Of a stretch of DNA of 64,000 nucleotides, positions 17,035 to 63,220 are shown piece by piece. The DNA is taken from assembly GCA_951406725.2 (NCBI GenBank), contig OX597824.1:60698001-60762000 (forward strand). The letters run 5' to 3'. The notes under the pieces are model-generated. The model was not told the DNA's origin. It searched no databases and worked only from the letters and a program-made list of their open reading frames with translations. Numbering within the stretch: position 1 is the first letter of the stretch; every line of letters begins with the position of its first letter. The DNA is from Octopus vulgaris. Taxonomy: Eukaryota. The position numbers and the translations under genes are program-made.

Positions 17035-17114
17035 CTAGATGCTACTAGGGATCAAGAAATAGCAGGACACAGCAGCAGATACAATAAACATCTGTTTCAA
17101 AGCTCGGATGGTAA
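17035..17114 (-). CDS. module A exon 11 (terminal): hydrophobic C-terminus, GPI-signal-like
   Basis: Acceptor gtttttttacag; phase 1; (V)TIRALKQMFIVSAAVSCYFLIPSSI-TAG. Confidence 0.75.
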
Positions 17115-17371
17115 CTGTAAAAAAACATGCAAAAATGGTATAATTAGATAACTGTTGCATCACACACATGCTCACACATACACAAACACATCTTTTCAAA
17201 GAATAACAGAATCAGTTTACCAGTTGAATGACCAGAAACATGTAACTTGGGGTCGTGGATTTATGAGCCTTCCAGTTACAACCTATCAAAGAATACTTTA
17301 CACCTAAATATTGAACTCTGTGATTTAATGCTTCTCTGTGAATCAACAGAATTGTATGTATATATATATAT

Positions 17372-17779
17372 ATTCTTTTACTCTTTTACTTGTTTCAGTC
17401 TGACTGCGGCCATGCTGGAGCACTGCCTTTAATCGAGCAACTCAACCCCGGGACTTATTCGTTTTTTTTGTAAGCCCAGTACTTATTCTATCGGTCTCTT
17501 TTGCCGAACTGCTAAGTAACAGGGACATAAACACACCAGCATCGGTTGTCAAGCAATGCTAGGGGGACAAACACAGACACACAAACACACACATGCATAT
17601 ATATATACATATATACGACGGGCTTCTTTCAGTTTCCATCTACCAAATCCACTCACAAGGCTTTGGTTGGCCCGAGGCTATAGTAGAAGACACTTGTCCA
17701 AGGTGCCACGCAGTGAGACTGAAACCGGAACCATGTGGTTGATAAACAAGCTACTTACCACAAAGCCACTCCTGCGCCT
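17372..17779 (-). mobile_element. tRNA-headed SINE, family 1
   Basis: Reverse complement of the copy at 55071-55470. Confidence 0.85.
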
Positions 17780-17799
17780 GTGCATATATATATGCACAC

Positions 17800-18180
17800 A
17801 TATTTATATTTATTTATATTAAGGGCATTACTATACATAGATGCCTCATGCTATGAGGGACTCTTAAAAGCAGAACTACCCTAATAAATACAGTGTACCA
17901 AACTTGAGAGAATGCAGCTCTCGAAGTGAGCTTCTTAAAAACAGATTCTGTTTTTAAGGAGCTCACTTCAAGAGTATTCCCTCGCATTCGGTACACTGTA
18001 TTTATTATGGTAGTTTTGACTTTAAGAGTCCCCCATAGCATGAGGCATTTATGTATAATAATGCCCTTAATATAAATAAATATATTTAAAGGGAATAATC
18101 AAAAATTTTTCCCTTATGAGGTTTTTCATGCTGAATACTTGATAAATTCTTATAAAAATTTTATCTTATTTTAAAATTTC
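17800..18180. mobile_element. fold-back fragment of the Penelope-like family also at 38401-39230
   Basis: ~140-bp inverted arms centred on ~17946; the right arm matches ~38610-38850. Confidence 0.75.
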
Positions 18181-18246
18181 ATACATATTTATATATATAC
18201 ACACACACACACACATGCATGTATATATATGTATATAATACATAGA

Positions 18247-18765
18247 TATGGTTTCTGATCTTAACTGATTGGAAGTGTTATTATGTACATGGTTTGTCTT
18301 GGCATAAAAGATGGGCTACAGCAAATATTCTGCTCAATACCACAGATTTTTTGTCAGTTGTTTGACCATAGCCATTTGAACATGCCACTTGGTGGCTGGC
18401 GATATGGGCATCTCTGATCACAAGCAGAGGTAGTGGGGGAACATCATAGCCATGTTTTGAGAGGAATTTTTTGGAGCTTGAATAATTCACCTCTGGAACC
18501 ATGGGTGTTTCGTTCAACATCCTTAAACAACTCTTATTCATTGACCTTTCGAGCGGGATGAGTTACTCAACCTGAAGAAAATTCTTACTGAGCCTCTGTT
18601 GCAAGGTCACATGCTATTTATCTTGATATGAAATCATCATCTCACACACATATGCTTGTGATGCAAGTGCCTGGTGTACCCTTATCAGATGGGTAGTCAT
18701 GATGGGTATACTGGGCTTCGTATATTTTACCCCGATGTCACTTTGATGGCATGCAGTTTTTCACT
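18247..18765 (+). mobile_element. ~540-bp (AAT)n-flanked retroposon; other copies at 21032-21590(-), 32570-33075(+), 33146-33686(+), 35115-35671(+)
   Basis: Five collinear copies (ctgatcttaactgattggaagtg ... tgatggcatgcactgctctctcactc), each ending in an AAT-type tail. Confidence 0.85.
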
Positions 18766-18794
18766 CAGCAGCAGCAACAACAATAACAACAACA

Positions 18795-19185
18795 AATTTT
18801 TTTGCAATAGGCACAAAGCCTGAAATTTCAGGGAGTGGGCTAGTCAATTACATTGACCCCATGGCAAAACTGGAACATATTTCATCAACCCTAAAAGAAT
18901 GAATGGTAAAGTCAACCTGATGGAATTTGAACTCAGAAAGTAAAGATGAATGAAATGCTGGTAAGCATTTTGTCCAGTGTGCTAACAATTCCACCAGCCT
19001 TAATAATACTAATAATTTCAAATTTTGACACAAAGCCAGCAATTTCAGAGGGGGAGTAAATTGATTACATTGACGCCAGTATTCAACTAGTATTTATTTT
19101 ATTGACTCTGAAGGATGAAAGGCAAAGTCAACTTTAGTGGACTTTGAACTCCGAATGTGAAAACGGATGAAATGCCACTGACAGA
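18795..19185 (-). mobile_element. two adjacent copies of tRNA-headed SINE family 2; more at ~22500-22940, 40085-40315, 44770-45210, 57830-57965
   Basis: Reverse complements of the copy at 43979-44200. Confidence 0.8.
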
Positions 19186-19640
19186 ATGATTCAGACTAAT
19201 CTACGAAACATAATCATTAAAGACATAGAAGAAAATATTTGTAGATTAATAGATGTAAGTGTTTCCATTGATAAAAATATATCTGATAAATTAAGTAAAT
19301 ATAAGGACCTGGAAATTGAAGTACAAAAGATGTGGCATTTTAAAGCAAGAACTGTTCCTGTTATTGAAGGTGCCCTAGGTATGACAAAAAGGGGATGTCA
19401 GAAACATCTAGACAGCATCCCAAGAGAACTATGTCTCAGAGAAATCCAAAAGTTTGTGCTAATAAATACTGCCCGTATCCTTAGAAAACCTCTATCAATT
19501 TAATGGTCTGTGTTGTATTACATGGCGATATTTCACTACTGCTCCTGCCACTTCCCCTCCCTAAGCTTTATCCTTCACTCACCCTAGGGTGCTGGGTATG
19601 TCTTGGCAAGTGATTTCAACAAACATGCAGATTAAAAGTA

Positions 19641-19675
<35 letters not shown>

Positions 19676-19680
19676 TAATA
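19186..19680 (+). mobile_element. 3' end of an R4/Dong-like non-LTR element (restriction-like endonuclease) with (TAA)n tail
   Basis: LIDVSV..DKNI..KLSKYKDLEIEVQKMW....VPVI.GALG motif. Confidence 0.8.
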
Positions 19681-20320: not shown

Positions 20321-20374
20321 CTGAGGCTGTATTAATTTCAGGAAACGGCATGGTTGTATAAACTGTGGTCAGTT
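20321..20374 (-). CDS. module A exon 10: stalk
   Basis: Acceptor ctctctttacag, donor CAG|gtaagg; phase 1-1; (E)LTTVYTTMPFPEINTAS. Confidence 0.8.
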
Positions 20375-21586: not shown

Positions 21587-21619
<33 letters not shown>

Positions 21620-24092: not shown

Positions 24093-24131
24093 CTGTCACT
24101 CTTGTATTATTGGTGGTTACATATTCAGCAT
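24093..24131 (-). CDS. module A exon 9
   Basis: Acceptor ttgttttccag, donor CAG|gtcaga; phase 1-1; (Y)AEYVTTNNTRVT; positional homologue of exon 60380-60436. Confidence 0.75.
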
Positions 24132-25000: not shown

Positions 25001-25117
25001 ATGGACAGATTCCACAAAGCCAAGGACATTTCATGGTTACATGAGGATGTAGGGAGCAATCATTGACAGTGTATTTCATTGAACAGTCTGCAGGATCATA
25101 ACCCAGGGAGCAGTTCA
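25001..25117 (-). CDS. module A exon 8: ShKT-like six-cysteine domain
   Basis: ttttttatag / gtaagt; phase 1-1; (M)NCSLGYDPADCSMKYTVNDCSLHPHVTMKCPWLCGICP. Confidence 0.92.
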
Positions 25118-27731: not shown

Positions 27732-27833
27732 TGCCACAAAGTGGTCCAGATGTAAAAGTGTTATTTGTGCAGTGGCACTGACAGGTTTCAGGGTCCATGG
27801 TGCCACCATTTAGACAAACATCACCCTGACAAT
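27732..27833 (-). CDS. module A exon 7: EGF-like domain
   Basis: tctatcatgtag / gtaagt; phase 1-1; (D)CQGDVCLNGGTMDPETCQCHCTNNTFTSGPLCG. Confidence 0.92.
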
Positions 27834-29372: not shown

Positions 29373-29437
29373 CTGTTAAGGATGTAGTTTCTGAACATAC
29401 TTCATAAGGATGGGATATGTTTGTCACTGAGCTTGCT
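29373..29437 (-). CDS. module A exon 6: reduced hinge
   Basis: cttttatttcag / CAG|gtctgt; phase 2-1 bridges exons 5 and 7; (E)ASSVTNISHPYEVCSETTSLT. Confidence 0.8.
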
Positions 29438-31825: not shown

Positions 31826-31911
31826 TCTAGACCATAATGGCAGACGTAGAAATCCATGCTTGAACATTTTGCAAAGCCACAGCCGATTCTTATAGTCTTA
31901 GCTTGTACCAT
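31826..31911 (-). CDS. module A exon 5: CAP domain C-terminal part
   Basis: tattttttaag / gtaagt; phase 0-2; MVQAKTIRIGCGFAKCSSMDFYVCHYGL. Confidence 0.92.
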
Positions 31912-35739: not shown

Positions 35740-35876
35740 CTCTGTATAACGTCCTACTTTAGAGAAATCATTAGTGACACCATAAGTAAAGCTTTTCCTT
35801 TCATCATACCATGAATGTATGGCTGCTGCCCAACTGTCCACTTGTCTGGCTAAATTTTGACCAGTGTGGAATTTTC
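35740..35876 (-). CDS. module A exon 4: CAP domain core
   Basis: tttttttcag / GAG|gtaatg; phase 1-0; (G)KFHTGQNLARQVDSWAAAIHSWYDERKSFTYGVTNDFSKVGRYTE. Confidence 0.93.
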
Positions 35877-43978: not shown

Positions 43979-44200
43979 AAGGTGGTGAGCTGGCAGAACC
44001 GTTAGCATGCCAGGCAAAATGCTTAGTGGCATTTCGTCATCTTTATGTTCTGGGTTCAAATTCCGCTGAAATTGACTTTGCTTTTCATCCTTTCAGGGTC
44101 GATAAAATAAGAACCAGTTGAGTACTGGGGTTGATATAATTGATTTACTCCTTCCTCACAAAATTTCAGGCCTTGTGCCTATTGTAGAAAGGATTATTAT
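43979..44200 (+). mobile_element. tRNA-headed SINE family 2, full copy
   Basis: B-box-like GGTTCAAATTCC, central ttcatcctttcagggtcgataaaataag domain, (ATT)n tail; multiple copies in the window. Confidence 0.8.
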
Positions 44201-44970
44201 TATTTATTCTTTTTATCTCAGGTTTTGTTGTAACTTCTGGAGTTACCCCCAGCCTATGGCACCGTGCTATCTGTTCTTTTCAATTATCTAATATTTTCCT
44301 AATTATAGTGGCTGTGCCACGGAGGCAAACCTTTTGTAACAGTTCTACTGGGCACTCTATTCCAATTTCCTTTATATTCCTCTTGGTGCCTTCTGATACT
44401 GTCCCCAAGGACCCAACAGTAATTGGCACTATCTTCTCTTTCTTCATTTTCTATAGCTGGGATATTTTATATTTAAAAAGATTGTATATATCTATCTTTT
44501 CACCTTCTTTCTACACTATTCATGTAGGTCAAGGGGGCATGCAACATCAACTAAATAGCACATTTGGTGCATCATGCCCACCACCACTAGGTTTGGTCTG
44601 TTATGCTCTAGTGCCTGTTCTGTTTGGACTGGGAAATCTCAGAGGATTTTTCAGATTTCCAACTCAGCCACTCTCCATGGTTTGTGCTCATACCATGTCT
44701 TGCCTCTTTCTAGCCACAACTTTTTGCACACTTTTCAATGTATCACATTCCCTACATTATTATTATTGACAAAGTGGTGAGCTGGCAGCATTGTTCGCAC
44801 ACTGGGTAAACTGTTTAGTGGCATTTCATCCACTTTACGGTCTGAGTTCAAATTTTGTCTTCTTTGCCTTTTATACTTTTGGGATCAATAAAATAAGTAC
44901 CAGTTGAGCACTAGGATTGATGTAATCGATTTCACCCCTACTCAGATGTTGCCAAAATTTGAAACCATCA

Positions 44971-45005
<35 letters not shown>

Positions 45006-45262
45006 GAATGTTCTGGCAGTGAGCTGGCAGAATTATTAGAGCATAAGGAAAAATGCCTTGCAGTACATCCTCTGACTATCAATGATCAAAGTTTAAATCC
45101 AATGGAAGTCAACTTTGTCTTAAATTCTCTTCTACAAGTCAACAATGGAGAGTTATCAGTTATAAGTTAACCTCTTCTGAATTTCAGGTGTTGCACTTAC
45201 ATTAGAAACAATTGCTGTTAGATAACCCAGTTGAATATCAGACACAATATATATATATATAT

Positions 45263-48200
45263 ATGGCCCACACCTCCCACACCCTCAGAGTTGGCACACT
45301 CAATGTTGGCACATTGAAAGGTAGGTCTGGAGAGATTGTTGAGCTGCTTGAACGGAGACGTGTGGATTTATGCTGCATCCAGGAAGTAAGGTGGAGAGGA
45401 GGTTCCGCTAGGCTCCTCACAGGCAAGGAACACAGGTACAAGATTTTCTGGGCAGGGAACACTGACGGGGTCGGGGGCGTGGGTATACTTCTTGTGGAGA
45501 AATGGGTAGATAAGGTAATCGAGGTAGTCAGAGTAAGTGACAGAGTACTTAAGATTAGATTAGTGCTTCATCATAGGCCAGCTACCATCATCTCGGCATA
45601 TGCCCCTCAACCAGGGCTACCGGAAGGACAGAAAGACCAATTCTACGACACCCTATTGCGGACTACCTCGTTGACAAATGACAGTGACCTTCTCTTTGTG
45701 GCAGGTGATTTCAATGGACATGTCGGGGGCTTCCATGGCGTTCATGGAGGCTACGGTTTTGGCTCTCGAAATGAGGAGGGAACCAGGCTGCTGGAGTTCT
45801 GTGATGCAAATGAACTTATGGTTTGCAATACCAACTTCAGGAAACCCACCTCTCACCTAGTCACCTACCGTTCTGGCAGGCACACTAGCCAGATTGACTA
45901 CATCCTCGCCAGAAAGAGGGAAAGAAGGCTGCTTATAAATGCCAAAACCTTTCCAGGCAAAGAATGTACTCCTCAACATAGATTAGTAGTTAGCGACTTC
46001 AGGATCAGAGCTAAATGGTTGCCCAGAAGAAGACCAGCTTGGAGGAGAAGGGTCTGGAAGCTTAAAGATCCTGCAAATGGACAGAGATTTAGAGACATAC
46101 TACTCGAAGCCTTTGACGAAATAGAAGGGGATATAGCTTCACTTAATGTGGAAGACAACTGGAGATTTCTACGGGACAATCTGCTGACAGCCACTGACCA
46201 GATCTGTGGATGGAGCAAAGTCCCATCTCGACCCAGAGTAACGTGGTGGTGGAACAATGTGGTTGACAGGGCTATTAGACAAAAGAAACAGGCTTGGAGG
46301 GACTGGAAGAACGGTGGTAGCAGGGAATTGTATCAGACAGCCAGAAGGGAAGCTAGGAGACAGGTTTATTTAGCCAGAAGGGAAGCGGATAAGAAAAAAT
46401 TTGCCAATGTTCTGCGCCGTGAGGATTAAAAACTTGAGGTATTTCGTGTTGCAAGACAGTGTGTGAGAGAGAGTCGTGATGTGGTAGGAGAGAAATGTGT
46501 CCGCATGGATGATGGTTCACTTGCGCTAAATGAGGATGCAAAGAGAGAGGTTTGGAGATGCCACTATGAAAGGTTGCTGAATAAAGAAAATGAATGGGAT
46601 AAAGAGAGTCTGCCGAATGTCAACCCAACAGAGGGACCAGCCATCCGAGTTGACAATTCTTTGGTAGTTAAGGCAATTAGAAGCATGAAGACAGGGAAAG
46701 CGCCAGGCCCATCAGGAATTACTGCAGAGATGCTCAAAATATCTGGCAGTGTCGGCTATAACCTAGTCACCCGTATAGTTAACCAGGTGATACACGAAGG
46801 AGTCATACCCAATGACTGGTGTAGCAGCATACTAGTCAAACTGCTACAAAGGTAAAGGAGACGCCCGAGATACAAATAATTACAGAGGTATCAAGCTGTT
46901 GGATCAGGTAATGAAAGTTACAGAGAGGGTCATAGCCCAACTGATTAGGGAGAGAGTCAACTTAGACGAGATGCAGTTTGGTTTCATGCCAGGGAAAAGC
47001 ACCACAGATGCCATATTTCTGATGAGACAGCTGCAGCAGAAATACCTAGCCAAAGATAAGCCCCTGTACCTGGCCTTCGTTGACATGGAGAAAGCCTTTG
47101 ACAGGGTCCCCCGATCCCTTATCTGGTGGTCAATGAGGAAACTAGGGATAGATGAATGGCTGGTGAAGGCTGTGCAAGCCATGTACAGGGATGCTGTAAG
47201 TAAGGTTAGGGTTGGCAACATGTACACAGAAGAATTCAAAGTAGAGGTTGGGGTCCACCAGGGTTCAGTACTCAGCCCCCTCCTATTTATCATAGTCCTC
47301 CAGGCAATAATGGAGGAATTCAAGACAGGTTGCCCCTGGGAGCTCCTCTATGCTGACGACCTTGCTCTAATTGCTGAGTCACTATCAGAACTGGAGGAGA
47401 AGTTCCAGGTGTGGAAGGAGGGCTTAGAATCGAGGGGCCTTAGAGTCAACCTAGCTAAAACCAAAGTACTAATAAGTAGGAAGGTAGACAATCCACAAAT
47501 GTCTTCAAGAAGATGGCCCTGCTCGATCTGTAGAAAAGGTGTAGGTAGAAACTCTATAAGATGTACCCAGTGTAAGCTATGGACACATAAGAAGTGCAGC
47601 AATGTCAAAGGAAGGCTAACTGGGAAGATAGTTTTTGTACGAGGGGCGTTCAATAAGTAATGCCTCTGACCCACTTGCAGTTGTTTGATCTAGCTGAAAA
47701 TTTACATGTGCAATTATTTATATCTCTATAGATTAAGTGACAAATTACAGCTCTGAACTAATTGTGGTTTCTGATTTACAGGTGTTTGAACTGAGTCAAG
47801 TGTGAAATGGAGCCTGTTGAGTGTCGAGCAGTGATCCGGTTTTTGTATTTGAAAGGACGCACACCATGGGAGACTTTTGATGAAATGAAATTGAATTATG
47901 GTGATGATGCCCCATCATATGACCTTGTAAAACGCTGGCATCGTGAATTCAAACATGGTTGGAACTCTGTGGAAACAGCTCCCAGATCTGGTCGCCCCCC
48001 CTTCTGCCATTGATGAGGCATCTGTCCATCAAGTTGAGGCTGCCATTTTGGAAGATCGACACATAACTATTCGCCAAATAGCCCATGAGGTCAAGTTTAG
48101 TACCGGGTCTGTGGAAACTATCATTCATGACCATTTGCATATGCAAAAGGTGTCTGCCAGATGGATTCCCAGGTTGCTCAAGCAAGAACGCGTCGAGTGC

Positions 48201-50182
48201 TCGAGGATGAATTTGGAGATGTGCCAAGAATATGAGTCAAAAATTTTCAAAAGACTTATTACACAGGATGAAACCTGGGTCCATCACTATGATCCAGAGA
48301 CCAAAGCCCAGTCAATGCAGTAGAAGCACTGTGACTCACCTCCTCCAAAGAAGGCAAGGGTGCAGCCCTCCGCTGGCAAGGTCATGCTCACAGTCTTCTG
48401 GGACCAGGACGGAGTAGTGATGACAGATTTCCTGGCAAAGGCTACCACAATTACAGGAGCCTATTATGCTTCACTTTTGAGGAAATTAAGAGAAGCTATC
48501 AAAATCAAGAGGCGGGGCAAGATCAGCAAAGGCATCCTCCTCCTGCAGGACAACGCTTCGGTCTACAACTCGCGTGTCGCCAGATCAGAAGCACAGGCGT
48601 GCGGCTATGAACTCCTACCCCATCCCCCTACTCTCCTGACCTTGCACCCTCTGATTTTCACCTCTTCCTAGCCATGAAGTTGTTTTTGAAAGGAAAGCGT
48701 TTCCCAGATGATGCAGCCTTGATTTCTGAAGTCACGTCGTGGTTGGAGGACCAAGCTGGGGTCTTCTACAAAAACGGTCTCCAGAGTTGCATCAAACGAT
48801 GGGAGAAATGCGTAACTCTGGATAGTTTCTATGTAGAAAAAGACTAATAACTGTGCCAAGTTTTGTTGCTCTACTGCTATGGGAAATGGGTCAGGGGCAT
48901 TATTTATTGAACGCTCCTCGTATGTGGCAGATGCTCAGGAGCAATAAACTCTGAAAATCTGCAGAAAACAACTTCCGTCACTTTCCAGGGGGAAAAACTA
49001 GAAGTAGTTGATAGCTTCCGTTATCTAGGTGACCAAGTCAGTAGTAGGGGTGGGTGCATTGAAAGTGTAACTGCTAGAGTAAGAATAGCCTGGGCAAAGT
49101 TTAGGGAGCTCTTACCTCTGCTGGTGACTAAAGGCCTCTCGCTCAGAGTAAAAGGCAGACTGTACGATGCATGTGTACGAACAGCCTTGCTACATGGCAG
49201 TGAAACACAGGCCGTGACTGCTGAGGACATGTGTAAGCTCGCGAGGAATGAAGCCAGTATGCTCCGATGGATGTGTAATGTTAGTGTGCATACTCGACAG
49301 AGCGTTAGTCCCTTGAGAGAAATGTTGGACCTAAGAAGCATCAGTTGTGGTGTGCAAGAGAGACGATTGCGCTGGTATGGTCATGTGGCAAGAATGAATG
49401 AAGATAGGTGTGTGAAAAAGTGCCAATCCCTTGCAGTTGAGGGAACCCGTGGAAGAAGTAGACCCAGGAAAACCTGGGACGAGGTGGTGAAGCATGACCT
49501 TCGAACTTTAGGCCTCACTGAGGATATGACCAGCGACCGAGACCTTTGGAAATATGCTGTGCGTGAGAAGACCAGGCAGGAAAAGTGAGTCCAGCCCACT
49601 TATGCATGCCTTTCCTCCCTTGGACACACAAAGACCTGTTGAGGCAAGCGAAGTCGATATCGAACCTCATCCGACGACAGGCACCCATGCCAACCCTCCT
49701 TTGCTTGCGAAGACCTGTTGGGGCAAGTGAAATCGAAATCGGAACGAAATTGAACCAATCCTATGACTGGCACTCGGCAGATGCCAGGACCCCTGGACTG
49801 GTGGTACGTAAAAAGCACTATCCGAATCGTGGCCGATGCCAGCGCTGCCTCAACTGGCTTCTGTGCCGGTGGCACGTAAAAAGCACCATCCGAATCGTGG
49901 TCGATGCCAGTGCCGCCTCGACTGTCTTCCGTGCTGGTGGCACGTAAAATGCACCAATCCGACCGTGGCCGTCGCCAGCCTCGCCTGGCACCTGTGCAGT
50001 GGCACGTAAAAAGCACCCACTACACTCACGGAGTGTTTGGCGTTAGGAAGGGCATCCAGCTGTAGAAACATTGCCAGATAAGACTGGAGCCTGGTGCAGC
50101 CTTCTGGCTTCCCAGATCCCCGGTCGAACCGTCCAACCCATGCTAGCATGGAGAACGGACGTTAAACGATGATGATGATGAT
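45263..50182 (+). mobile_element. near full-length RTE-clade LINE (APE + RT + PHD finger) with one stop, one frameshift and a mariner insertion
   Basis: GTLNVGT, IQEVRW, AGDFNGHVG, QIDYIL, HQGSVLSPLLF, LLYADD, RRLRWYGHV. Lesions at ~46427 and ~46840. Tandem ~58-bp repeats in the 3' UTR; (GAT)n tail. Confidence 0.97.
47640..48920 (+). mobile_element. full-length mariner (DD34D) element, pseudogenised
   Basis: TIRs CGAGGGGCGTTCAATAAGTAATGCCTCTGACCCA / TGGGTCAGGGGCATTATTTATTGAACGCTCCTCG; TA duplication at 47638-39 and 48921-22; WIPRLL, QDETW, QDNA, PDLAPSDF. Confidence 0.97.
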
Positions 50183-50199
50183 ATATATATATATATAAT

Positions 50200-50643
50200 A
50201 TTAGGGAATATGATTCCAAACTTACAGGGAAAAATTCAATTTAGTAATACTAAATCAAATTTCACAATATATAATATATGAATATAAATTAGAGAAGCAC
50301 CACCTTGTAGCAATTCAACAATGATATAATAAAATCATACCATATAGAAAAAAATTAAATATACAATAAAACATATACCTATATGTAAGTAAAGTACAAA
50401 ATAATAATGATAAATAAATTGTATATAATTAGTAAATTAAAGACTACAAGTGTTTCGTGGCTATATTTTCAAATTGATAACAGTAAAATCATTTATTTAT
50501 TATTATATACTATTTATTTATTATTTTGTACTTTACTTAATTATAGGTATATGTTTTATTGTATATTTAATTTTTTTCTGTATGGTATGATTTAATTATA
50601 TCATTGTTGAATTGCTACATGGTGGTGCTTCTCTAATTTATAT
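50200..50643. mobile_element. fold-back Penelope-like fragment with half a hammerhead
   Basis: ~50283-50410 is the reverse complement of ~50515-50643; minus strand C-GAAA-C(ACTT)G-TA-GTCT at 50441-50457. Confidence 0.55.
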
Positions 50644-50644
50644 A

Positions 50645-50690
50645 CATACATATACATGCATGCATGCATACATACACATACATACATACA

Positions 50691-50722
<32 letters not shown>

Positions 50723-50810
50723 CATACGTACGTATGTATGTATGTATGTATGTATGTATGTATGTATGTATGTATGTATGTATATGCATGCATGTATATG
50801 TATGTATATA
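50645..50810. repeat. (CATA)n followed by (TATG)n, a self-complementary microsatellite
   Basis: Directly visible. Confidence 0.9.
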
Positions 50811-51026
50811 AATTAGTTATTTCTTTGTGTTCAAATATTTTTCTTGAAATCACTCCAACCAAGGTGACACATCAAAGAAACCCAGTACAATCTGTAAAGT
50901 AGCTGGCATTAGGAAGGGCATCCAGCCATAGAAACCAGGCCAAAACAGACAACAGGAGCCTGGTGCCACTCTCCACTAACCTACATCAGCATGGAAAATG
51001 GACATTAAATGACGACAACGATGATG

Positions 51027-51062
<36 letters not shown>

Positions 51063-51434
51063 TTATAAAATGAGATAGGGGTTGAAAATTCAACCCACCA
51101 TGGGATAATATATATCCAATATACTGCTAGATAGGTACCCAACAAAATTAATACATAGATGTTAAAAATTGTCAAGCAATCAGTTCATCTATTGTATTAA
51201 ATGGGTAAAGGTAATAATATTACCGTAAATTAATACTACAAAATTAGAGAATGGAGAAACATACTTAAATCAGTAAAACATCAACTATCCGATGATACTC
51301 AATCCATACTTTAATACACCATTACATATGAGTAAAGGCAATATATAAAATGAAATGAGATATACAGTAATAGTAAAAGTAAAAAGATAAAGAGATATAA
51401 GTAAAAAATTTCAAATATAATATGCAAATAAATC

Positions 51435-51550
51435 AAAACTGACAGCTGTTTCGGCAGTGAGGATAGTCATACCTCATTTAACCTATAAGCCATAAAGGCA
51501 GGTATAAATGAGGCATTAACAAGGATGCCCCACGGCCTCTTCAGAGAATT
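51435..51550 (-). ncRNA. type I hammerhead ribozyme with long stem II (inverted copy)
   Basis: Reverse complement of 53999-54114. Confidence 0.8.
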
Positions 51551-51903
51551 AAATTAAATTTGTTATAATAGTGAAAAATATTATATAATCATATACATAT
51601 AAATATAAAAATATAAAAATGTAAAATATAAAAACTTATACATCATAATGCTACACTTATATAATATAATACACATTTGTACAAAAAGGAAGGTAAACAG
51701 AACAAAATAAAACAAAATATATAACAGTGTATATATTAATATTAATAAGTACCGATATTATACATATTTGGCTAATATTTTTTTTTATAAAAAAAAAAAA
51801 AAAAAAAAAAAAAGGGCTAACACATATGGAGATGAAAAATAATAATTAAATCCGTGGTACAGTTCATAAAATTCTAAAGCTATAAAAGTTAATAAAAATT
51901 ACT

Positions 51904-51953
<50 letters not shown>

Positions 51954-53598
51954 TAATAATAATAAAAAAAATACTAAAAATAGATACAGTTAAGTTAGTA
52001 CCAAGTCCATCCTTTCAAGATCGAAATAACTATGAGTTAAGAAATGCTGACCACTAGGTAAAGAAAATTTAGATTAATTCGATTGGCTATTGGTTTGAAA
52101 TTTAAATCACAAAAGAAAATTATACGGTTGGTTAGTCAAGGAACGCCAATATTCACACACGCATCTACAGATCAATCGCACATACACACATAGTTATATG
52201 TATATACATACACTTATACACATACACAATCACAAGCAACAACTAGCACTTAGATAAACAAAAAAGGGAAGCAACTATGCTAACATTTAGTCCTTCAAAA
52301 TTATAACTGAGCCAACAAAAAAAGAACCATCCATGCATTCTATAAAATATTTAATTTAGATATAAATATATTTATAAATATCAGTATGTTACTAATTCAG
52401 ATAATTATTTCATGGGTAACTTAAAATTTATAACACCGGTTTGTTACAGAGTAAACATACGGTTGTTAGGTTTATCGTAAGTTTGTTATGATTTTAAGTA
52501 CGCTAAATTATAAAATATAAAATATAAAATATATATTAATTTAAATATTATAAATAAGTCACTTATTAACTTAATAAATATAGTGCCATAATATACCAGT
52601 TTAGGCATTAAAGAATAGAAGGGGAAGTATTAATGTAAACGCTTATGAGAACATCACAGAAATTTTAAATAAATTTTATATTATAAAGACTTAAGATGAA
52701 AAGAGATAAAATAAATAAAAAGGAATAAATACGAAGGAATAAATACGGTTATACACATAATTATAAGTACAAACTAGTATATATGTATTCATATATTATT
52801 AAAATTAAATAAAAATAAATGATAGATATGTATGTATAAAACTACACCAGTATAAGTAAATAAGTAAAAAATAAATAGGTAACAAATTAGATGACTTGAT
52901 ATGTATGTAAACATCTACACTTAAATAGGCAAATAGATAAATGAATAGAAGACTAGATGCAAAGATTGATAATATTACAATAAAATGGGAAATAAATAAA
53001 AATAAATAAAGTGAATATATATATTTTATATTGTTGAAAGTAAATATGTATGGAAGGATAGTTTAAAGTACAGATCCAGAGGACTATAGATATAAACTAA
53101 ATATATGAGGCTGGTAATAATATAAATTTTAAGTTACCCATGAAATAATTATCTGAATTAGTAACATACTGATATTTATAAATATATTTATATCTAAATT
53201 AAATATTTTATAGAATGCATGGATGGTTCTTTTTTTGTTGGCTCAGTTATAATTTTGAAGGACTAAATGTTAGCATAGTTGCTTCCCTTTTTTGTTTATC
53301 TAAGTGCTAGTTGTTGCTTGTGATTGTGTATGTGTATAAGTGTATGTATATACATATAACTATGTGTGTATGTGCGATTGATCTGTAGATGCGTGTGTGA
53401 ATATTGGCGTTCCTTGACTAACCAACCGTATAATTTTCTTTTGTGATTTAAATTTCAAACCAATAGCCAATCGAATTAATCTAAATTTTCTTTACCTAGT
53501 GGTCAGCATTTCTTAACTCATAGTTATTTCGATCTTGAAAGGATGGACTTGGTACTAACTTAACTGTATCTATTTTTAGTATTTTTTTATTATTATTA

Positions 53599-53648
<50 letters not shown>

Positions 53649-53998
53649 AGTAATTTTTATTAACTTTTATAGCTTTAGAATTTTATGAACTGTACCACGG
53701 ATTTAATTATTATTTTTCATTTCCATATGTGTTAGCCCTTTTTTTTTTTTTTTTTTTTTTATAAAAATAACTATTAGCCAAATATGTATAATATCGGTAC
53801 TTATTAATATTAATATATACACTGTTATATATTTTGTTTTATTTTGTTCTGTTTACCTTCCTTTTTGTACAAATGTGTATTATATTATATAAGTGTAGCA
53901 TTATGATGTATAAGTTTTTATATTTTACATTTTTATATTTTTATATTTATATGTATATGATTATATAATATTTTTCACTATTATAACAAATTTAATTT

Positions 53999-54114
53999 AA
54001 TTCTCTGAAGAGGCCGTGGGGCATCCTTGTTAATGCCTCATTTATACCTGCCTTTATGGCTTATAGGTTAAATGAGGTATGACTATCCTCACTGCCGAAA
54101 CAGCTGTCAGTTTT
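53999..54114 (+). ncRNA. type I hammerhead ribozyme with long stem II
   Basis: CT-CTGAAGA-GGC...GCC-GAAA-C(AGCT)G-TC-AG; predicted cleavage after 54108; stem I weak. Confidence 0.82.
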
Positions 54115-54332
54115 GATTTATTTGCATATTATATTTGAAATTTTTTACTTATATCTCTTTATCTTTTTACTCTTACTATTACTGTATATCTCATTTCATT
54201 TTATATATTGCCTTTACTCATATGTAATGGTGTATTAAAGTATGGATTGAGTATCATCGGATAGTTGATGTTTTACTGATTTAAGTATGTTTCTCCATTC
54301 TCTAATTTTGTAGTATATATATATATATATAT

Positions 54333-54975
54333 ATGAATAAATAAATGGAGTTTAACGCAGGTGTAATCAAATATTTTTACTTTCAACACATGTTTCGAAA
54401 ATTCCACTGATACTATTCAAAAGAATAAATGGTATTAACAATGCAATCTTCTCCTCAGTGAAAAAAACGAAACTCGTCAATAAGACATTTTAGCAAAAAA
54501 TGATGGATTTGTATAGCGATTGACAGAACGCTATTAATATTGTTTAAAAAAACGTTATATGATATAACGTAATAAGTAGCTAGTACTCTTTCTGTTAGCT
54601 ACTTATGACGTTATATAACGTCATAAGTAGCTAACAGAAAGAGTACAAATCCATCATTTTTTGCTAAAATGTCTTATTGACGAGTTTCGTTTTTTCACTT
54701 TCCTGAGGAGAAGATTGCATTGTTTATACCATTTATTCTTTTGAATAGTATCAGTGGAATTTTCGAAACATGTGTCGAAAGTAAAAATATTTGATTACAC
54801 CTGCGTTAAACTCCATTTATTTATTCATATATTATTCAAAATATTCAACGTAAACACGAAGTTTCTACCTTTATAAACAAGGAGTTACAACACCTTTACT
54901 TGTGAGATTTTTGCTGCCCTGGTAACTATTTATTTATTTTTTCCGTGTTAATTGTTAACAAGGTAAAAATACACT
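54333..54975. mobile_element. fold-back Penelope-like element of another family with a perfect 64-bp palindrome (54583-54646)
   Basis: ~54333-54513 is the reverse complement of ~54644-54830; TA-flanked. Confidence 0.8.
54697..54782 (+). ncRNA. type I hammerhead ribozyme, fully intact
   Basis: ACTTTC-CTGAGGA-GAAGATT...AATTTTC-GAAA-C(ATGT)G-TC-GAAAGT; predicted cleavage after 54776. A damaged inverted copy lies at ~54379-54464(-). Confidence 0.88.
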
Positions 54976-54992
54976 CATCTATTTATATATAA

Positions 54993-55070
<78 letters not shown>

Positions 55071-55072
<2 letters not shown>

Positions 55073-55470
55073 AGTGGCTGTGTGGTAAGTAGCTTGCTAA
55101 CCAACCACATGGTTCCAGGTTCAGTCCCACTGCGTGGCATCTTGGGCAAGTGTCTTCTGCTATAGCCCCAGGCCGACCAATGCCTTGTGAGTGGATTTGG
55201 TAGATGGAAACTGAAAGAAGCCCGTCGTATATATGTATATATATATGTATGTATGTATGTGTGTTTGTGTGTCTATGTTTGTCCCCCCTAGCATCGCTTG
55301 ACAACCGATGCTGGTGTGTTTATGTCCCCGTCACTTAGTGGTTCGGCAAAAGAGACCGATAGAATAAGTACTGGGCTTACAAAGAATAAGTCCCGGGGTC
55401 GATTTGCTCGACTAAAGGCGGTGCTCCAGCATGGCCGCAGTCAAATGACTGAAACAAGTAAAAGAGTAAC
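55071..55470 (+). mobile_element. tRNA-headed SINE family 1, full copy within (TA)n
   Basis: A-box TGGCTGTGTGG, B-box GGTTCAGTCCC, internal microsatellite; many copies in the window. Confidence 0.88.
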
Positions 55471-55474
55471 AGAG

Positions 55475-55507
<33 letters not shown>

Positions 55508-55596
55508 GTATATTCAAATATGAAATAGATGCAGTGCTAGTATAATAAACATTATTAACCACATATAGTTAACATACATACTTCAGGTATTTGCCA

Positions 55597-55743
55597 GTAG
55601 GCTGCAATTTGGCATGATGGAGAGTATTCTCTCAAAGTGCCAGGTGTTAGAGGTGAGTTATCTTGCCTGTCCATGACTCTAAGTTGTTTTAACACCCAGC
55701 GCTTCAAGAGAATATTCTCCATCATGCCAAGCTGCAGCCTACC
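55597..55743. repeat. ~55-bp imperfect inverted repeat (MITE-like hairpin)
   Basis: gtaggctgcaatttggcatgatggagagtattctct / agagaatattctccatcatgccaagctgcagcctac. Confidence 0.75.
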
Positions 55744-56314
55744 AGAAAATATACTACGAATATACATTAAGTATATGTGGTTGACATATACATATATATA
55801 TATATATATATGAGCAAAATAGCTAGTTGTAAAATATCAAGAAGAGATCAGAGTAGTAACTATGCTAAACAGGAAAGTCAGCTGCCACATCAAAGTGGTT
55901 GTTACCTGTTACTACTAGTTTAACCCCAGGTAGATCTTCCACCAGCTAGTGTCGGTGTGATGCTGCACCCTTTATATGCAATACATATTGCTTGCTAGGG
56001 TAACAAACTCCTACCATCCTTGAACTGATAACAAAATTGTGAGACTGACTCAGTTTTGAGCCATTTAGTTCATCCTCAGTCTGAGCACTGGCCACCAGAG
56101 TGATAGCCAGAGTCTGTTCCAGCCAGCAATATATTGCAAACAAAGTGACCATTGGTCACTGATTTGCAATAAGTAAAATAGCTAGATGTAAAATCTCAAG
56201 AAGTGATCAGAGTAGTAACTATACTAAAAAGTATATATATTATGCATTTACACACACATTTAAATGTATTTAAGTATAGACATATATGTATCTATGCATG
56301 TCTGTATATAAGTA

Positions 56315-57494
56315 CTAGCATTAAAGACCCGTCGTTGCCGGGTCATAGTGCTAGTGCATGTATATATGTGTATATATATGTGTACATATTACATGTACAT
56401 CTATATATATATACATCTACACATAAAATACAAAATCATATCTTGATATCGCTAGTGATAACAATACTCAAAATATATAACAGACTGGAATTGTTTGCCC
56501 GTCTCTTGTAATTTCGATCAATTGCATCTTGTCCTCCCTCTTGTATAGAAGTGTGGCTACAATCCAGCCTACCTGTACTTCTGGGGGAGGGGGGGCATTT
56601 TTGGTTTTTTTCCAGGACGTCCTATGTCCCAGATATAAAGGTAAAAATAAAATATTTCCACTTTGCAAGTTCGAGTCGAGTACTCCCTTGCATGCTCCGT
56701 TGACTCGAACCTTGCTTCTATTGTGGCGAATTTACCGCCTCTGATTAGATACCTTTCATAGTCGCACCAAAACACTTTTCGAAGGTGCTTTCCTCCATGT
56801 GTTCAAATCTTCTTTTTTCTCTACATTGTATACTTTATAGACAATAGTCTTTTCTTTAATTTAATTTATTATTATTCATCTGGACTATTCCATTTCTGCA
56901 CACTAATTTTATTTTTAATTTATTCCCATTCATGTGAAACCACTTATTCAAGTTCGAGTCATTGATGCAATTTTATACCAATTGCTATTTTTACTTTTGT
57001 TATGTTATGATTATATTATACTTTAGTTTGATTTTAATTATTACTTACTACATATAATTCAATTGTTATTATTATTTTTATTGTTAAAGTGAAAGTATCT
57101 GACATAAAATAGAGAAACGTTTTTGTTTCACTTTTAACACGTAATACTGAAATAGTGGAGAAGATATGATATTGCTATGGGCTCGCCCTAGGCAAGAAGT
57201 TGAACACTTTTTTTGCCCATGAAACTACATGGACCCTGAGTAAGGCATGTGTAAAATTTGAATGGAATTGGTTGTGTTGTTCTCAAGTTTTAGGGAATCG
57301 TAGTGGAGAAGATATGATATTGCTGTGGGCTCGCCTTAGGCAAAAAGTTCAAAATCTTTTTTGCTGATGACACTCCCCGGACCCTAAGTAAGGCATATGT
57401 AAAATTTGAATGAAATTGTAGTTCTCAAGTTTTAGGGAAACACACACACAGACAGACAGACAGACACACATTCTCAGTTTTATATATATATAGA
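56315..57494 (-). mobile_element. non-autonomous Helitron with a captured coding-like fragment and a ~148-bp internal duplication
   Basis: 5' A|TCTATATATATATAAAAC; 3' hairpin GACCCGGCAACGACGGGTC plus CTAG|T; duplication ~57152-57300 / 57301-57440. Confidence 0.82.
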
Positions 57495-58223
57495 TATTCA
57501 TATATATGTATACATGCATGTGTGTGTGTGTAAATGCCAAATCAAGAACTTTCAGTTCAGTATTTACAAGTACACAGTTCAGTTAATTCTATGAAAATGG
57601 TCATGACAAACCTAAAGAGACAATATATTCCCCACTGGCCATGGGAAGGAGAAGTGAGATGAAGAGCTTCTATTTTGGAATTTCTTTCCTTTCAGTCTTT
57701 TTCTTTTTTCATTTTTGTCCCATTTTCCAGCTAGATAACCTCATCTTCAGAGTATATTTTTTCAATATTTATAGCTATACCAAGTAGATATAATTCACGT
57801 CAACACATGCTATAAAGTGTTTGTAAATATTCTTTTCTACTCTAGGTACAAGGCCCGAAATTTTATGGGAGGGGGCCAGTCGATTAGATCGACCCCAGTA
57901 CACAACTGATATTTAATTTATCAACCCCGAAAGGATGAAAGGCAAAGTCAACTTTGGCAGAATTTGAAAGTGTTTGTAAATATTAAAACATTGACACAAA
58001 ACATGAGGTAAATAGTGTGGAAAATAATATAATCTTATTAACAATGCTTCATATCAGATTTTAGATATACAGTATACTTTTATATAGTTGCTAATATTTG
58101 CTAGAGGTTACTGGGGGGATTAGCAGAAAATAATGCACTTTTATACTAACAAAGAGGGAATCAAATTTTCTTTTTAATTAATGTTAAAGAGTATTCTAGG
58201 AATAACATAATGAAATGTCTCAC

Positions 58224-58360
58224 CTGAGTGGATAACATAACAGTTGCAGTAGAAGCCATAGTAGTAACAGTTGTAGCAGCAGTAGTAGTAGGAATAGTAG
58301 TAGCAAGAATAGTAGTAGTAGCTGTTGTAGCAACTGTAGTGGTATGCTTAGTTGATGTAG
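58224..58360 (-). CDS. module B exon: Thr-rich mucin-like linker
   Basis: ctttgttccag / CAG|gtgaga; phase 1-0; (A)TSTKHTTTVATTATTTILATTIPTTTAATTVTTMASTATVMLSTQ. Confidence 0.85.
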
Positions 58361-60379: not shown

Positions 60380-60436
60380 CAAGAGTAGTTACTGGCTTTG
60401 TTGAATCTGTAGTCCAATCAGAACCATAATTGGCAT
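60380..60436 (-). CDS. module B exon following the ShKT domain
   Basis: ttttcattctcag / TTG|gtaatt; phase 1-1; (Y)ANYGSDWTTDSTKPVTTL. Confidence 0.82.
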
Positions 60437-60479
60437 CTGAGAATGAAAAAAGTATTTAAGATAAAGCAGTGTATTCCAT

Positions 60480-60659: not shown

Positions 60660-60784
60660 TATATATATAGACAGATAGATATGCATGCACATGTATATAG
60701 ATCCAGCTTTCTTTCTCTCACTGTCCCTCTCTGTACACACATACACACACACACAATAATACATTATACAAAAACAAATGGCTC

Positions 60785-61161
60785 TCTCTTGGTTACGACG
60801 ACGAGTGTTCCAGTTGATCCAATCAACAGAACAGCCTGCTCATGAAATTAACTTAGCAAGTGGCTGAACACTCCACAGACACATGTACCCTAAACGTAGT
60901 TCTCGGGGAGATTCAGTGTGACACAGAGTGTGACAAAGCTGGCCCTTTGAAATACAGGTACAAGAGAAACAAGAAGAAAGAGTGAGAGAAATTTGTGGTG
61001 AAAGAGTACAACAGGTTTCACTCCCCACCCCCCGTCAGAGCCTCGTGGAGCTTTTAGGTGTTTTCACTCAATAAACACTCACAACTCCCAGTCTGGGAAT
61101 CGAAACTGCAATCGTAAGACCGTGAGTCCACTGCCCTACCCACTGGGCCATTGTGCCTCCA
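60785..61161 (-). mobile_element. tRNA-headed SINE family 3
   Basis: Minus-strand head TGGAGGCACAATGGCCCAGTGG (A box) ... GTTTCGATTCC (B box). Confidence 0.75.
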
Positions 61162-61662
61162 CTACATTATAATACTTTATAATAAATTATAAAACAGCTG
61201 TTAACTGTAATTTAAATAATAGGCTTTATCTTCACACCTGTAACTCTTGCTAGTTGTTGGCCCTATACAAAGCACACATTATATTGCTACCATATATAGG
61301 ATACCTCTGTGTCTAAGTAACTGGACTAGCTATATCTTGTTGCAGCTTACTTCCATATACACACTTCTATCACAACAATTCAGTTTTAGCTTCTGAAATG
61401 TTCTTCAATATTGACATCATTGATGTTTGTGAAAGACAAATTGTGCACAAAATAGATGGGAACAAGAGATAGCAAGGAAGAGATGGCAGATAGTGTTGTT
61501 ACAGCTTGCATTTGGTTGTCTTTTTCTTGTTGACTTCAGAAAGCTCAGTATCTAATCTGTCTTTATAAAATATATGTCACACAAATTTTGATTAGAGTAT
61601 TTTGTGAGCTGCTATTAGAGAAGGAAGGAAGAAGTAAAAGCATAAAAATACAAGTTACTTAC

Positions 61663-61779
61663 ATGGACATATTCCACACATTTTGGGACATAGGTTTGGA
61701 ACATTGGCATACTTAGTACACCATTCTGGTTTGTAGTATGAACCACAGTAACCATTATCTTTGCCTAGAGAGCAATTCA
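61663..61779 (-). CDS. module B exon: ShKT-like domain
   Basis: gttctttatag / gtaagt; phase 1-1; 117 nt like its paralogue; (M)NCSLGKDNGYCGSYYKPEWCTKYANVPNLCPKMCGICP. Confidence 0.92.
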
Positions 61780-62059
61780 CTATAAAGAACAAAAAATTAA
61801 TACAGGAGACAAAATGAGGAATTGGCTTTATAGGGAAAACAAAATTTCACTTCTATGCAAAAAGTAGCATTACTCAATATTTAGTTATAGAGATTACAGG
61901 AATTCTATAATGTATATGTAATGTAAACAGTGTGAAATACAAAAAAGAAGTAAGTAGGGTCTCTTGAGGTGTGATAGATGCATATGTGACTTAATAAACA
62001 AAACAGCTAGATATGGTGAAAAAATAGTTGTTAGTATGAGGAACTTGTTCATTCTGATT

Positions 62060-62535
62060 CTTTGTGGAGAGGTTGACTGCATAAAGGCAGTGTGAGATGT
62101 GTGATACCAAAAGGTTGTGGGATAAAGACATGGACTGAGTATGGAAGATCTATTTCAGAGGTTGGAAAGAAATGACACATGCATGATATATGGGATGTGA
62201 CATTGAAGACATCAGCCAATGTATCCAAGAGAGAGAAATGTTCTGGTTATGGGCAAGTGATGTGAATTGGTGAGGACTGGTAGATGAAATAGTAGTTTGA
62301 AGTGATAGAAAATGATGATGCAGGTGAGAGAAGAGTGAGAAAGATGTGTGAAGTTTTGGAAAAGACAGTTGTCATGATGTTGAGCCTAATTGATGTTGAA
62401 TTGAAATAGTATTAAGCATCACATTGGGACTTATTTAAGCCTGTAACTGTATGGAAAAGCATATGTTAAAACAGTGATAATAAAGACAATGACAACAACA
62501 ATGAAGACGAGGATGATGATGATGATGATGATGGA
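62060..62535 (+). mobile_element. highly degenerate RTE 3' fragment
   Basis: Remnants aligning by eye to 49190-49570; (GAT)n tail. Confidence 0.5.
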
Positions 62536-62699
62536 GAAGGTTTACCTAAAGCTAATCTGTTTTGTTTAAAACCGTCAATGTCATATTATATAGGAACATA
62601 ATAATAAACAGAAACAGTGAATGTATAACAAAACTCACAATGATAATTTCAGAACTAATTACTGTCCAAATTTCTTATTATTTGATATTATTGTCATAG

Positions 62700-62800
62700 T
62701 TGTCATCATCATCGTCATCATCATCATCATCATCACCATCATTTTCGTCTACATCATTATTGTCATCATCATCATCATCGTCATCGTCACCGTCAACGTC

Positions 62801-62832
<32 letters not shown>

Positions 62833-62850
62833 CGTCAGCAACAACAACAA
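62700..62850. repeat. (CAT)n/(CAA)n microsatellite
   Basis: Directly visible. Confidence 0.9.
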
Positions 62851-63118
62851 TTTATCTTATATTTCTCCACCCATGGTAGTTTGGGTAGATTAGCTACAGT
62901 ATATAACAATTTGTTTCAATCAGCATCATATCTTGGGAGGCTTGGTCCCATCAACATAATAAGCTGTTCTTTATCCAACAGCAGTTGTCAATATACAACA
63001 CTGCCAACTCACCTGTACAAAGGATGGTGCAATTTGGGATTTCTTTTTGTACTTTAATTATTATTATTATTATTATATATAAATAGTTAAAGTATCAATA
63101 TTAAATAAATATATTTAC

Positions 63119-63220
63119 TTGAACAGTCTGGTTGAGAAAAGTATTTTGAACTACCACATTTACAATTACAACCATTATCAATCCTTGAACCTTCATTCAG
63201 ACAAACCTTTCCTTTACAAT
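63119..63220 (-). CDS. module B exon: EGF-like domain
   Basis: tttactttcag / CAA|gtaaat; phase 1-1; 102 nt like its paralogue; (D)CKGKVCLNEGSRIDNGCNCKCGSSKYFSQPDCS. Confidence 0.9.

What the first reader, a model, noticed from the sequence alone, without database searches (positions are those of the whole stretch)
17035..63220. Possible double-module CAP-EGF-ShKT cell-surface protein invisible to the ORF track
Seen: fifteen short minus-strand exons with GT-AG borders and compatible phases. Module A (11 exons, 313 aa) is CAP, EGF, ShKT, stalk, hydrophobic tail. Module B repeats EGF and ShKT with identical exon lengths (102 and 117 nt) and ends in a Thr-rich exon. I found no convincing stop exon for B and no ATG/signal-peptide exon for A. 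B's last exon ends in phase 0 (...STQ, 58224) and A's first begins in phase 0 (KYCPR, 43618). Inference: they may splice across a 14.6-kb intron into one tandem [CAP]-EGF-ShKT-linker-CAP-EGF-ShKT-GPI protein; B's CAP domain would lie beyond the window. Double-CAP proteins are known from nematodes; I do not know this architecture from molluscs. The alternative is two tandem paralogues.
Basis: partly seen in the sequence, partly recalled or inferred. Interest (0 to 1): 0.75.

Follow-up and report, generated by a model that had tools for sequence, protein, structure and literature searches.

The report
Six-module octopus CAP surface protein
These exons are the last third of one very long octopus gene that likely strings six copies of a known mollusc CAP-EGF-ShK unit into a single, probably membrane-anchored protein; it is already in public gene models but appears undescribed.

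Summary
All 15 exons are real: GT-AG borders, matching phases, 313-aa module A. They are the 3' end of a 287-kb, 66-exon minus-strand gene on G000:C11. It matches a public 1,934-aa Octopus vulgaris model exon by exon (P0001, CAI9730330.1): one signal peptide, six CAP-EGF-ShK modules (F, E, D, C, B, A), Ser/Thr-rich linkers and a GPI-like tail.

B's exons are spliced in 3 of 4 runs laid. In two runs a contig leaves B's last exon at 58224 and continues for 1,425 and 1,359 nt. The longer length equals module A plus a 3' UTR ending 18 nt after an AATAAA. The junction letters themselves were not seen in RNA.

So the fusion reading holds, but with six modules, not two. The unit is a known molluscan type (CAP-ShK type II, Mr30/Tex31-like). 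Abalone and clam models hold two-unit versions, apparently of separate origin. O. sinensis models have four modules, one an E/C chimera. Function is inferred: a multivalent, non-catalytic surface binder. Verdict: new variant of a known kind, moderate interest.

The parts
63119..63220 (-). Module B EGF-like exon (102 nt, phase 1-1); B's CAP and hinge exons lie beyond the window (extended coordinates 88251-64750)
   Evidence: joint 61779/63119 in 3 of 4 runs
61663..61779 (-). Module B ShK-like exon (117 nt, phase 1-1)
   Evidence: Pfam ShK E=0.052, below cut-off
60380..60436 (-). B-A linker exon 1 (57 nt)
   Evidence: joints 60436/61663 and 58360/60380 in 3 of 4 runs
58224..58360 (-). B-A linker exon 2, Thr-rich (137 nt, phase 1-0)
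   Evidence: contig pieces in X3 and X12 stop at exactly 58224, with 1,359 and 1,425 further letters
43619..58223 (-). 14,605-nt intron between modules B and A; holds a LINE and a 1.2-kb inverted repeat
   Evidence: splice inferred from public models and contig lengths
43540..43618 (-). Module A exon 1 (N-terminal Cys pair, phase 0-1)
42448..42539 (-). Module A CAP exon 2
37673..37763 (-). Module A CAP exon 3 (first cavity His kept)
35740..35876 (-). Module A CAP exon 4; second cavity His replaced by Arg
31826..31911 (-). Module A CAP exon 5
29373..29437 (-). Module A hinge exon (65 nt, phase 2-1)
27732..27833 (-). Module A EGF-like (CxCxC-type) exon, 102 nt
25001..25117 (-). Module A ShK-like exon, 117 nt
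   Evidence: no Pfam hit
24093..24131 (-). Stalk exon 1
20321..20374 (-). Stalk exon 2 (predicted GPI omega region)
   Evidence: GPI is inference
17035..17114 (-). Last coding exon: hydrophobic C-terminal tail and stop
   Evidence: highest hydropathy window of the protein, residues 1918-1934
16552..17034 (-). Inferred 3' UTR; AATAAA at 16575-16570
   Evidence: implied end of the X12 contig at 16552; inferred from length

Best explanation
The window holds the last 15 exons of one octopus gene that likely encodes a single 1,934-aa, predicted GPI-anchored surface glycoprotein of six tandem CAP-EGF-ShK modules, which would act as a multivalent, non-catalytic binder. Shown: the exons, their phases, six modules in order on one strand, one detectable signal-peptide exon pair at the 5' end, splicing within module B, and the CAP fold. 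Inferred: the B-to-A splice (about 0.93), all six modules in one mRNA (about 0.8), and the GPI anchor (about 0.7). Function (about 0.4): the protein is exported and tethered by its C-terminus. Ser/Thr-rich, probably O-glycosylated linkers hold six CAP heads away from the membrane. Each head binds lipid, sterol or a membrane surface weakly, and repetition gives avidity. The membrane-proximal module A has lost a cavity His and is likely a structural spacer or binds a different ligand. Origin (inferred): the array grew by tandem intragenic duplication of a single-module cephalopod gene, because phase-compatible borders let whole cassettes be copied in frame.
For: P0001 maps colinearly by exact matches across 304474-17035, with the second signal exon placed separately. 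Pfam finds 6 CAP stretches in it. A search with the signal peptide over 464 kb finds only its own two exons at E<1. In RNA contigs, B's joints appear in 3 of 4 runs. The X12 contig carries 1,425 letters beyond 58224: 942 coding nt of A plus 483 nt, ending at 16552, 18 nt past AATAAA 16575-16570. The X3 contig's 1,359 letters imply an end at 16618, just past an ATTAAA at 16630. Four O. sinensis isoforms and three O. bimaculoides models join a Thr-rich exon to KYCPR. The Thr-exon-plus-A1 pair has a duplicate inside the C-B linker with homologous splice flanks. Modules D and C are 2,264 nt apart with one linker exon between. Hydrophobic tails occur in 40 of 113 relatives that carry the unit. The model of O. 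bimaculoides module A has mean pLDDT 79 and matches CRISP/CAP structures, best E 6.5e-15. A review argues that concatenated CAP domains point to a stoichiometric, non-catalytic role (PMC10189770, passages).
Against: The letters across the B-A junction were not seen in RNA; the join rests on contig lengths and gene models. The O. vulgaris model carries the O. sinensis locus name, so those two may not be independent. No RNA was examined for the other four module-to-module joins. B's last exon can read through to a stop after 20 codons. One weak ATG/hydrophobic phase-0 candidate exon lies in the intron at 57105, against one in the antisense control. The 2022 O. bimaculoides model (P0008) enters module A at exon 3 and lacks this junction. 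Run X5 showed no spliced joint. No GPI predictor, tissue data or binding test was available.
Confidence: 0.75

Rival explanations
1. Two or more separate tandem paralogues: B ends by reading through its Thr-rich exon, and A has its own undetected 5' exon.
For: A read-through stop exists 20 codons after 58224, with a mildly hydrophobic stretch and AATAAA sites at 57082-56870. A weak ATG candidate lies at 57105. Single-unit genes are the family norm: 108 of 157 relatives have one CAP and one full unit. Low-depth unspliced contigs exist in these introns.
Against: Contigs in X3 and X12 leave the genome at exactly 58224, with lengths that fit module A plus UTR. No signal-peptide homologue lies between modules. 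The D-C gap is 2.3 kb. Models in three species join the Thr exon to A1.
Confidence: 0.06
2. One locus, but mostly shorter isoforms: module skipping or early polyadenylation gives 2-4-module or secreted forms, and the six-module protein is minor or a modelling product.
For: Equivalent exons share phases in all modules, so skips stay in frame. O. sinensis models join E's CAP to C's EGF-ShK (98% and 100% identity). The 2022 O. bimaculoides model jumps into A at exon 3.
Against: Those joins are equally explained by assembly collapse of 94-97% identical duplicates or by real deletion. All module exons mapped in this genome are open and have canonical sites.
Confidence: 0.15
3. A venom or salivary CRISP-like polyprotein that is cut into single ion-channel-active units.
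For: The closest solved structures are snake-venom CRISPs. Related CAP-ShK type II genes are salivary-gland specific in a vampire snail (PMC6409789, section 2.2). The RefSeq name by similarity is 'latisemin-like'.
Against: There is no R-x-K/R-R site in 1,934 aa, the C-terminus looks like an anchor, and the linkers are mucin-like. The same paper reports oyster type II genes as mantle-specific (passage). Relatives occur in a brachiopod, a bryozoan and bivalves.
Confidence: 0.08

Closest known systems
Molluscan CAP-ShK type II proteins (Conus Mr30/Tex31, Cumia CreCAP-ShK 4-7; PMC6409789)
   Same: Signal peptide, CAP domain, then EGF-like and poorly recognisable ShK-like Cys arrays. An oyster 'Mr30-like' protein is among the best hits.
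   Different: The Cumia proteins described have one CAP domain, 295-452 aa, and vary their Cys-rich tail. Here the whole CAP-EGF-ShK unit is repeated six times and ends in an anchor-like tail.
Single-module cuttlefish 'CRISP' (Acanthosepion pharaonis CAE1258453.1) and O. bimaculoides A0A0L8H9P6
   Same: Same unit and hydrophobic tail; same 99-support clade as all 13 octopus modules in the quick tree.
   Different: One module only.
Two-module models in Haliotis asinina (XP_067656171.1) and Mactra antiquata (KAL4224526.1, plus a Reeler domain)
   Different: Two units only, and outside the cephalopod clade in the tree, so likely separate duplications. Uncharacterised.
Vertebrate and snake CRISPs (pseudecin, natrin, triflin) and GLIPR1
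   Same: CAP fold plus a C-terminal six-Cys domain; best structural matches.
   Different: Single unit, no inserted EGF-like exon. The octopus hinge has one Cys, and Pfam Crisp is not detected.
Multi-CAP proteins: hookworm Na-ASP-1 (two CAP), Trichuris (2-3 CAP), Raphidocelis A0A2V0P999 (eight CAP)
   Same: Concatenated CAP domains (PMC10189770 and PMC9778506, passages). 7- and 10-CAP proteins also appear.
   Different: In one search the proteins with three or more CAP domains carry no EGF-ShK cassette; the passages read describe CAP repeats only.

Membership tests
CAP superfamily | CAP domain above Pfam cut-off | tested here: met
   PF00188, 6 stretches, E 1.9e-122
CAP superfamily | alpha-beta-alpha sandwich fold | tested here: met
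   Model of the O. bimaculoides module A orthologue (91% identical), CAP core mostly pLDDT >90; Foldseek E 6.5e-15
CAP superfamily | His-Glu-Glu-His cavity tetrad | tested here: not met
   The first Glu is Gln in all six modules and in 50 of 50 aligned relatives. The second His is Arg in module A but His in 46 of 50 relatives and in modules F-B. Mapping of columns to tetrad positions is from motif recall.
CAP superfamily | Sterol, lipid or metal binding | not testable with these tools
   Inferred from family knowledge (PMC10189770 passages)
Molluscan CAP-ShK type II | Signal peptide + CAP + EGF-like and non-canonical ShK-like Cys motifs | tested here: met
   definition from PMC6409789 section 2.2
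Molluscan CAP-ShK type II | Falls in the clade with Mr30/Tex31 and CreCAP-ShK 4-7 | not tested
   The paper's reference sequences were not knowingly in my tree
ShKT domain | Six-Cys ShK pattern at Pfam cut-off | tested here: inconclusive
   Six Cys and three short helices in the model. Pfam ShK 14.6 bits against cut-off 20.9 for B, no hit for A.
EGF-like domain | Canonical six-Cys EGF pattern at Pfam cut-off | tested here: not met
   CxCxC spacing. EGF_2 12.8 bits against cut-off 22.1 for B; A matches CXCXC instead. EGF-like by resemblance only.
Vertebrate CRISP | Crisp domain (hinge + ion-channel-regulator) directly after CAP | tested here: not met
   No PF08562 hit; an extra EGF-like exon intervenes
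GPI-anchored proteins | N-terminal signal, small-residue omega site, spacer, terminal hydrophobic stretch with no cytoplasmic tail | tested here: inconclusive
   Hydropathy peaks at both termini; no predictor or assay run

The most novel reading that the evidence does not exclude
The gene is an accordion-like recognition protein of Octopus. Its module number and module composition change by unequal recombination between near-identical cassettes (six modules here, four with an E/C chimera in O. sinensis), and its middle modules diversify under positive selection, as expected of a gamete- or microbe-recognition surface protein.
Probability: 0.2. Interest if true: 0.65.

Novelty: new variant of a known kind. 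Interest (0 to 1): 0.4.

Why it matters
It is the longest array of the CAP-EGF-ShK unit among the relatives examined: none of 157 has more than two full units. Repetition of this unit seems to have arisen separately in octopus, abalone and clam. That supports an avidity-based, non-catalytic role for CAP domains, whose function is a long-open question. The six natural variants in one chain, including a cavity His-to-Arg module and a D/C pair with an excess of amino-acid changes, are a ready series for binding tests. It also warns that 'latisemin-like venom protein' labels on octopus fragments can be pieces of an anchored surface protein. Interest is limited because the sequence and junction are already in public annotation and no function is shown.

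Tried and rejected
Pfam CAP search of the own genome missed this locus because its exons are short. A single-exon search found 5 of the 6 modules and two other loci, so these counts are lower bounds.

No holder was listed as RNA on record; the runs are judged RNA from their GT-AG joints. Contig depths were not used to rank modules or isoforms. The loose-end table was cut (426 rows not shown) and did not show the letters beyond 58224.

A word-index search with the four-module protein among 739-2,354-aa proteins returned only the two Octopus clusters, 2 of 7,981 candidates scored. This is weak evidence of absence.

Positive selection was not shown. D vs C: dN/dS 2.06 (41.2 non-synonymous, 5.8 synonymous changes), Fisher p 0.146. 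E vs B: 0.55, p 0.122. Older pairs: 0.48-0.49.

The careful tree and the one-clade test did not finish; only the quick tree is used. The ESM Atlas gave single-unit CAP clusters only and has no model. The wide VIA fold search did not run, so the EGF and ShK folds were not tested separately. Earlier findings of this scan: none returned.

Literature: searches listed no paper on this gene or on a multi-module octopus CAP protein. The five accession or locus terms gave 0 papers. Main texts only were searched; supplementary tables of octopus transcriptome or proteome papers were not seen and may list the locus.
Full report
Observation. The window is G000:C11:60698001-60762000 of a 2.8-Gb genome. All 15 exons are present on the minus strand. 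Module A's 11 exons sum to 942 nt, or 313 aa plus stop, with canonical sites. B's four exons and the 102/117-nt match between modules are as stated.

What lies beyond the window. I took 400 kb upstream of the gene's 3' part; extended coordinates continue the window's numbering. Exon-wise tblastn shows six ordered sets of CAP, EGF-like and ShK-like exons, named F, E, D, C, B, A from 5' to 3', and no further set above 265836. A search with one exon of A returned 4 proteins among 7 candidates. P0001 (CAI9730330.1, labelled Octopus vulgaris, 'uncharacterized', 1,934 aa) maps by exact colinear matches from ATG at 304474 to the stop at 17035. Its second signal exon lies near 271160. The span is 287,440 nt, with 66 coding exons by my count. 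Pfam finds six CAP domains. P0001 and four O. sinensis isoforms contain STQ|KYCPR; three older O. bimaculoides models join a Thr-rich stretch to KYCPR. The gene is therefore annotated publicly, though invisible to an ORF track.

RNA evidence. Four runs were laid on 57500-63500. X1, X3 and X12 show all three GT-AG joints among B's exons; X5 shows none. In X3 a 1,579-nt contig holds the Thr-rich exon at letters 84-220, and in X12 a 1,645-nt contig holds it at 1,426-1,562 in reverse. Both leave the genome at exactly 58224, with 1,359 and 1,425 further letters. Subtracting A's 942 nt leaves 417 and 483 nt. These place the ends at 16618 and 16552; the latter is 18 nt past an AATAAA at 16575-16570. 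The fit strongly favours splicing into A, but the letters across the junction were not displayed, so the join remains an inference. An X3 contig also joins a hinge exon (E or B type) to the EGF exon, and its EGF piece matches module E at the one listed difference. No other module-to-module join was examined in RNA.

Testing the two-paralogue rival. Phase 0 is uninformative, since every module starts in phase 0. The signal peptide has no homologue at E<1 in 464 kb apart from its own exons. A scan of the 14.6-kb intron gave one weak start-exon candidate at 57105, and one on the antisense control. B's last exon could read through to a stop after 20 codons, so a minor secreted form is possible. 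Modules D and C are 2,264 nt apart, with one linker exon. The C-B linker contains a second Thr-rich exon followed by a copy of A's first exon (66% identical with flanks; donor flanks homologous), kept in frame. The Thr-exon-to-A1 adjacency is thus older than that duplication.

History. Modules E and B are 94% identical and D and C 86%; the two pairs are about 64% alike, and F and A are 43-50% to all others. Intron-containing blocks of E and B align at 90-99%, and of D and C at 91-96%. In O. sinensis models, module 2 is E's CAP (98.4%) joined to C's EGF-ShK (100%), giving four modules. This may be a deletion, a skip or an assembly collapse. The 2022 O. bimaculoides model joins a C-like module to A at exon 3, which tells against the junction being universal in models. 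dN/dS is 2.06 for D vs C but not significant (p 0.146), and 0.48-0.55 for the other three pairs.

Relatives. A full HMMER search gave 3,075 hits, of which the best 150 were listed. I scanned 157 non-query proteins (148 listed plus 9 cluster members) with HMMs built from the same set. Of these, 113 carry at least one CAP-EGF-ShK unit, 40 of the 113 have a hydrophobic tail, 3 have two units (Haliotis, Mactra, Nucella) and none has three or more. Named relatives span cephalopods, gastropods, bivalves, a chiton, a brachiopod and a bryozoan. A quick tree of 71 complete units, midpoint-rooted, was built from the top of the list; lower hits and incomplete units were left out. It puts all 13 octopus modules in a 99-support clade with single-unit cuttlefish and octopus proteins and unnamed sequences, apart from the abalone and clam pairs. 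Module F groups weakly (85) with the single-unit proteins. Separate origins of the arrays are likely but were not formally tested.

Mechanism. The model of the module A orthologue is confident over CAP, EGF-like and ShK-like parts and of low confidence in the linkers. It matches CRISP and other CAP structures. P0001 has 125 Cys, 25 N-glycosylation sequons, no R-x-K/R-R site and hydrophobic ends. Linkers are 21-47% Ser/Thr. I infer a GPI-tethered, extended, multivalent binder rather than a cleaved polyprotein. The cavity reads His-Gln-Glu-His in five modules and His-Gln-Glu-Arg in A, the Arg being shared by all three Octopus species. Metal binding is therefore doubtful in A. A Lys-Tyr pair follows the third Cys of the ShK-like domain in B, C and D; its relation to the channel-blocking dyad of ShK is recalled and untested.

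Known context. PMC6409789 (passages and section 2.2 read) defines molluscan CAP-ShK type II proteins with EGF-like and non-canonical ShK domains, of unknown function, mantle-specific in oyster. PMC10189770 (passages) notes proteins with up to eight CAP domains and argues for a stoichiometric role. PMC9778506 (passages) lists whipworm proteins with 2-3 CAP domains. Other papers were seen only as search listings. Searches listed nothing on this gene; supplements were not seen.

Verdict. The feature is real and the fusion idea is very likely right, but the protein has six modules. The unit is known, concatenated CAP domains are known, and the sequence is in public annotation. A six-fold array of this cassette appears undescribed. 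New variant of a known kind; interest 0.4.

Noticed in passing
L003:7160-7238 (extended 91238-91160): An orphan copy of module A's first exon, with two Cys, is kept in frame inside the C-B linker in O. vulgaris and O. sinensis models; a fossil duplication breakpoint.
   Followed up: yes
window 45206-49585 (+): A broken LINE-like element in the B-A intron, antisense to the gene; endonuclease domain by Pfam, with related copies near extended 200-204 kb.
   Followed up: partly
window 51233-52432 and 54316-53121: A 1.2-kb inverted repeat, 99.3% identical, with a related pair at extended 76.9-79.6 kb in a module B intron; possibly a foldback-type DNA element.
   Followed up: no
window 5897-7096 (-): A 400-aa open frame with a reverse transcriptase domain (RVT_1, E 7e-27), downstream of the gene; a LINE fragment.
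   Followed up: partly
window 25329-27326 (-): Degenerate LINE-like frames in the intron between A's EGF-like and ShK-like exons, judged by eye; the two pieces scanned gave no Pfam hit.
   Followed up: partly
G000:C1:105066464-105119497 (+): A cluster of five apparently intronless CAP genes (open frames 315-359 aa), one with an internal TAG.
   Followed up: no
P0002 vs P0001, F-E linker: Three O. sinensis isoforms carry an extra 19-aa linker segment absent from P0001 and P0005; probably an alternative exon, not looked for in this genome.
   Followed up: no
P0012 (Mactra antiquata KAL4224526.1): A Reeler domain fused to two CAP-EGF-ShK units with a hydrophobic tail.
   Followed up: no
P0011 (unnamed ENA protein, 2,254 aa): Ten CAP domains and a hydrophobic tail, more than the eight cited as the maximum in PMC10189770.
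   Followed up: no
window 61663-61779, run X3: A contig differs from B's ShK-like exon at 9 places; of the four listed, two match module E and two match neither, suggesting another allele or module variant.
   Followed up: partly
window 20325-20621 (+): A Thr/Ile/Ala-rich low-complexity frame antisense to the stalk intron; likely a degenerate trinucleotide repeat.
   Followed up: no
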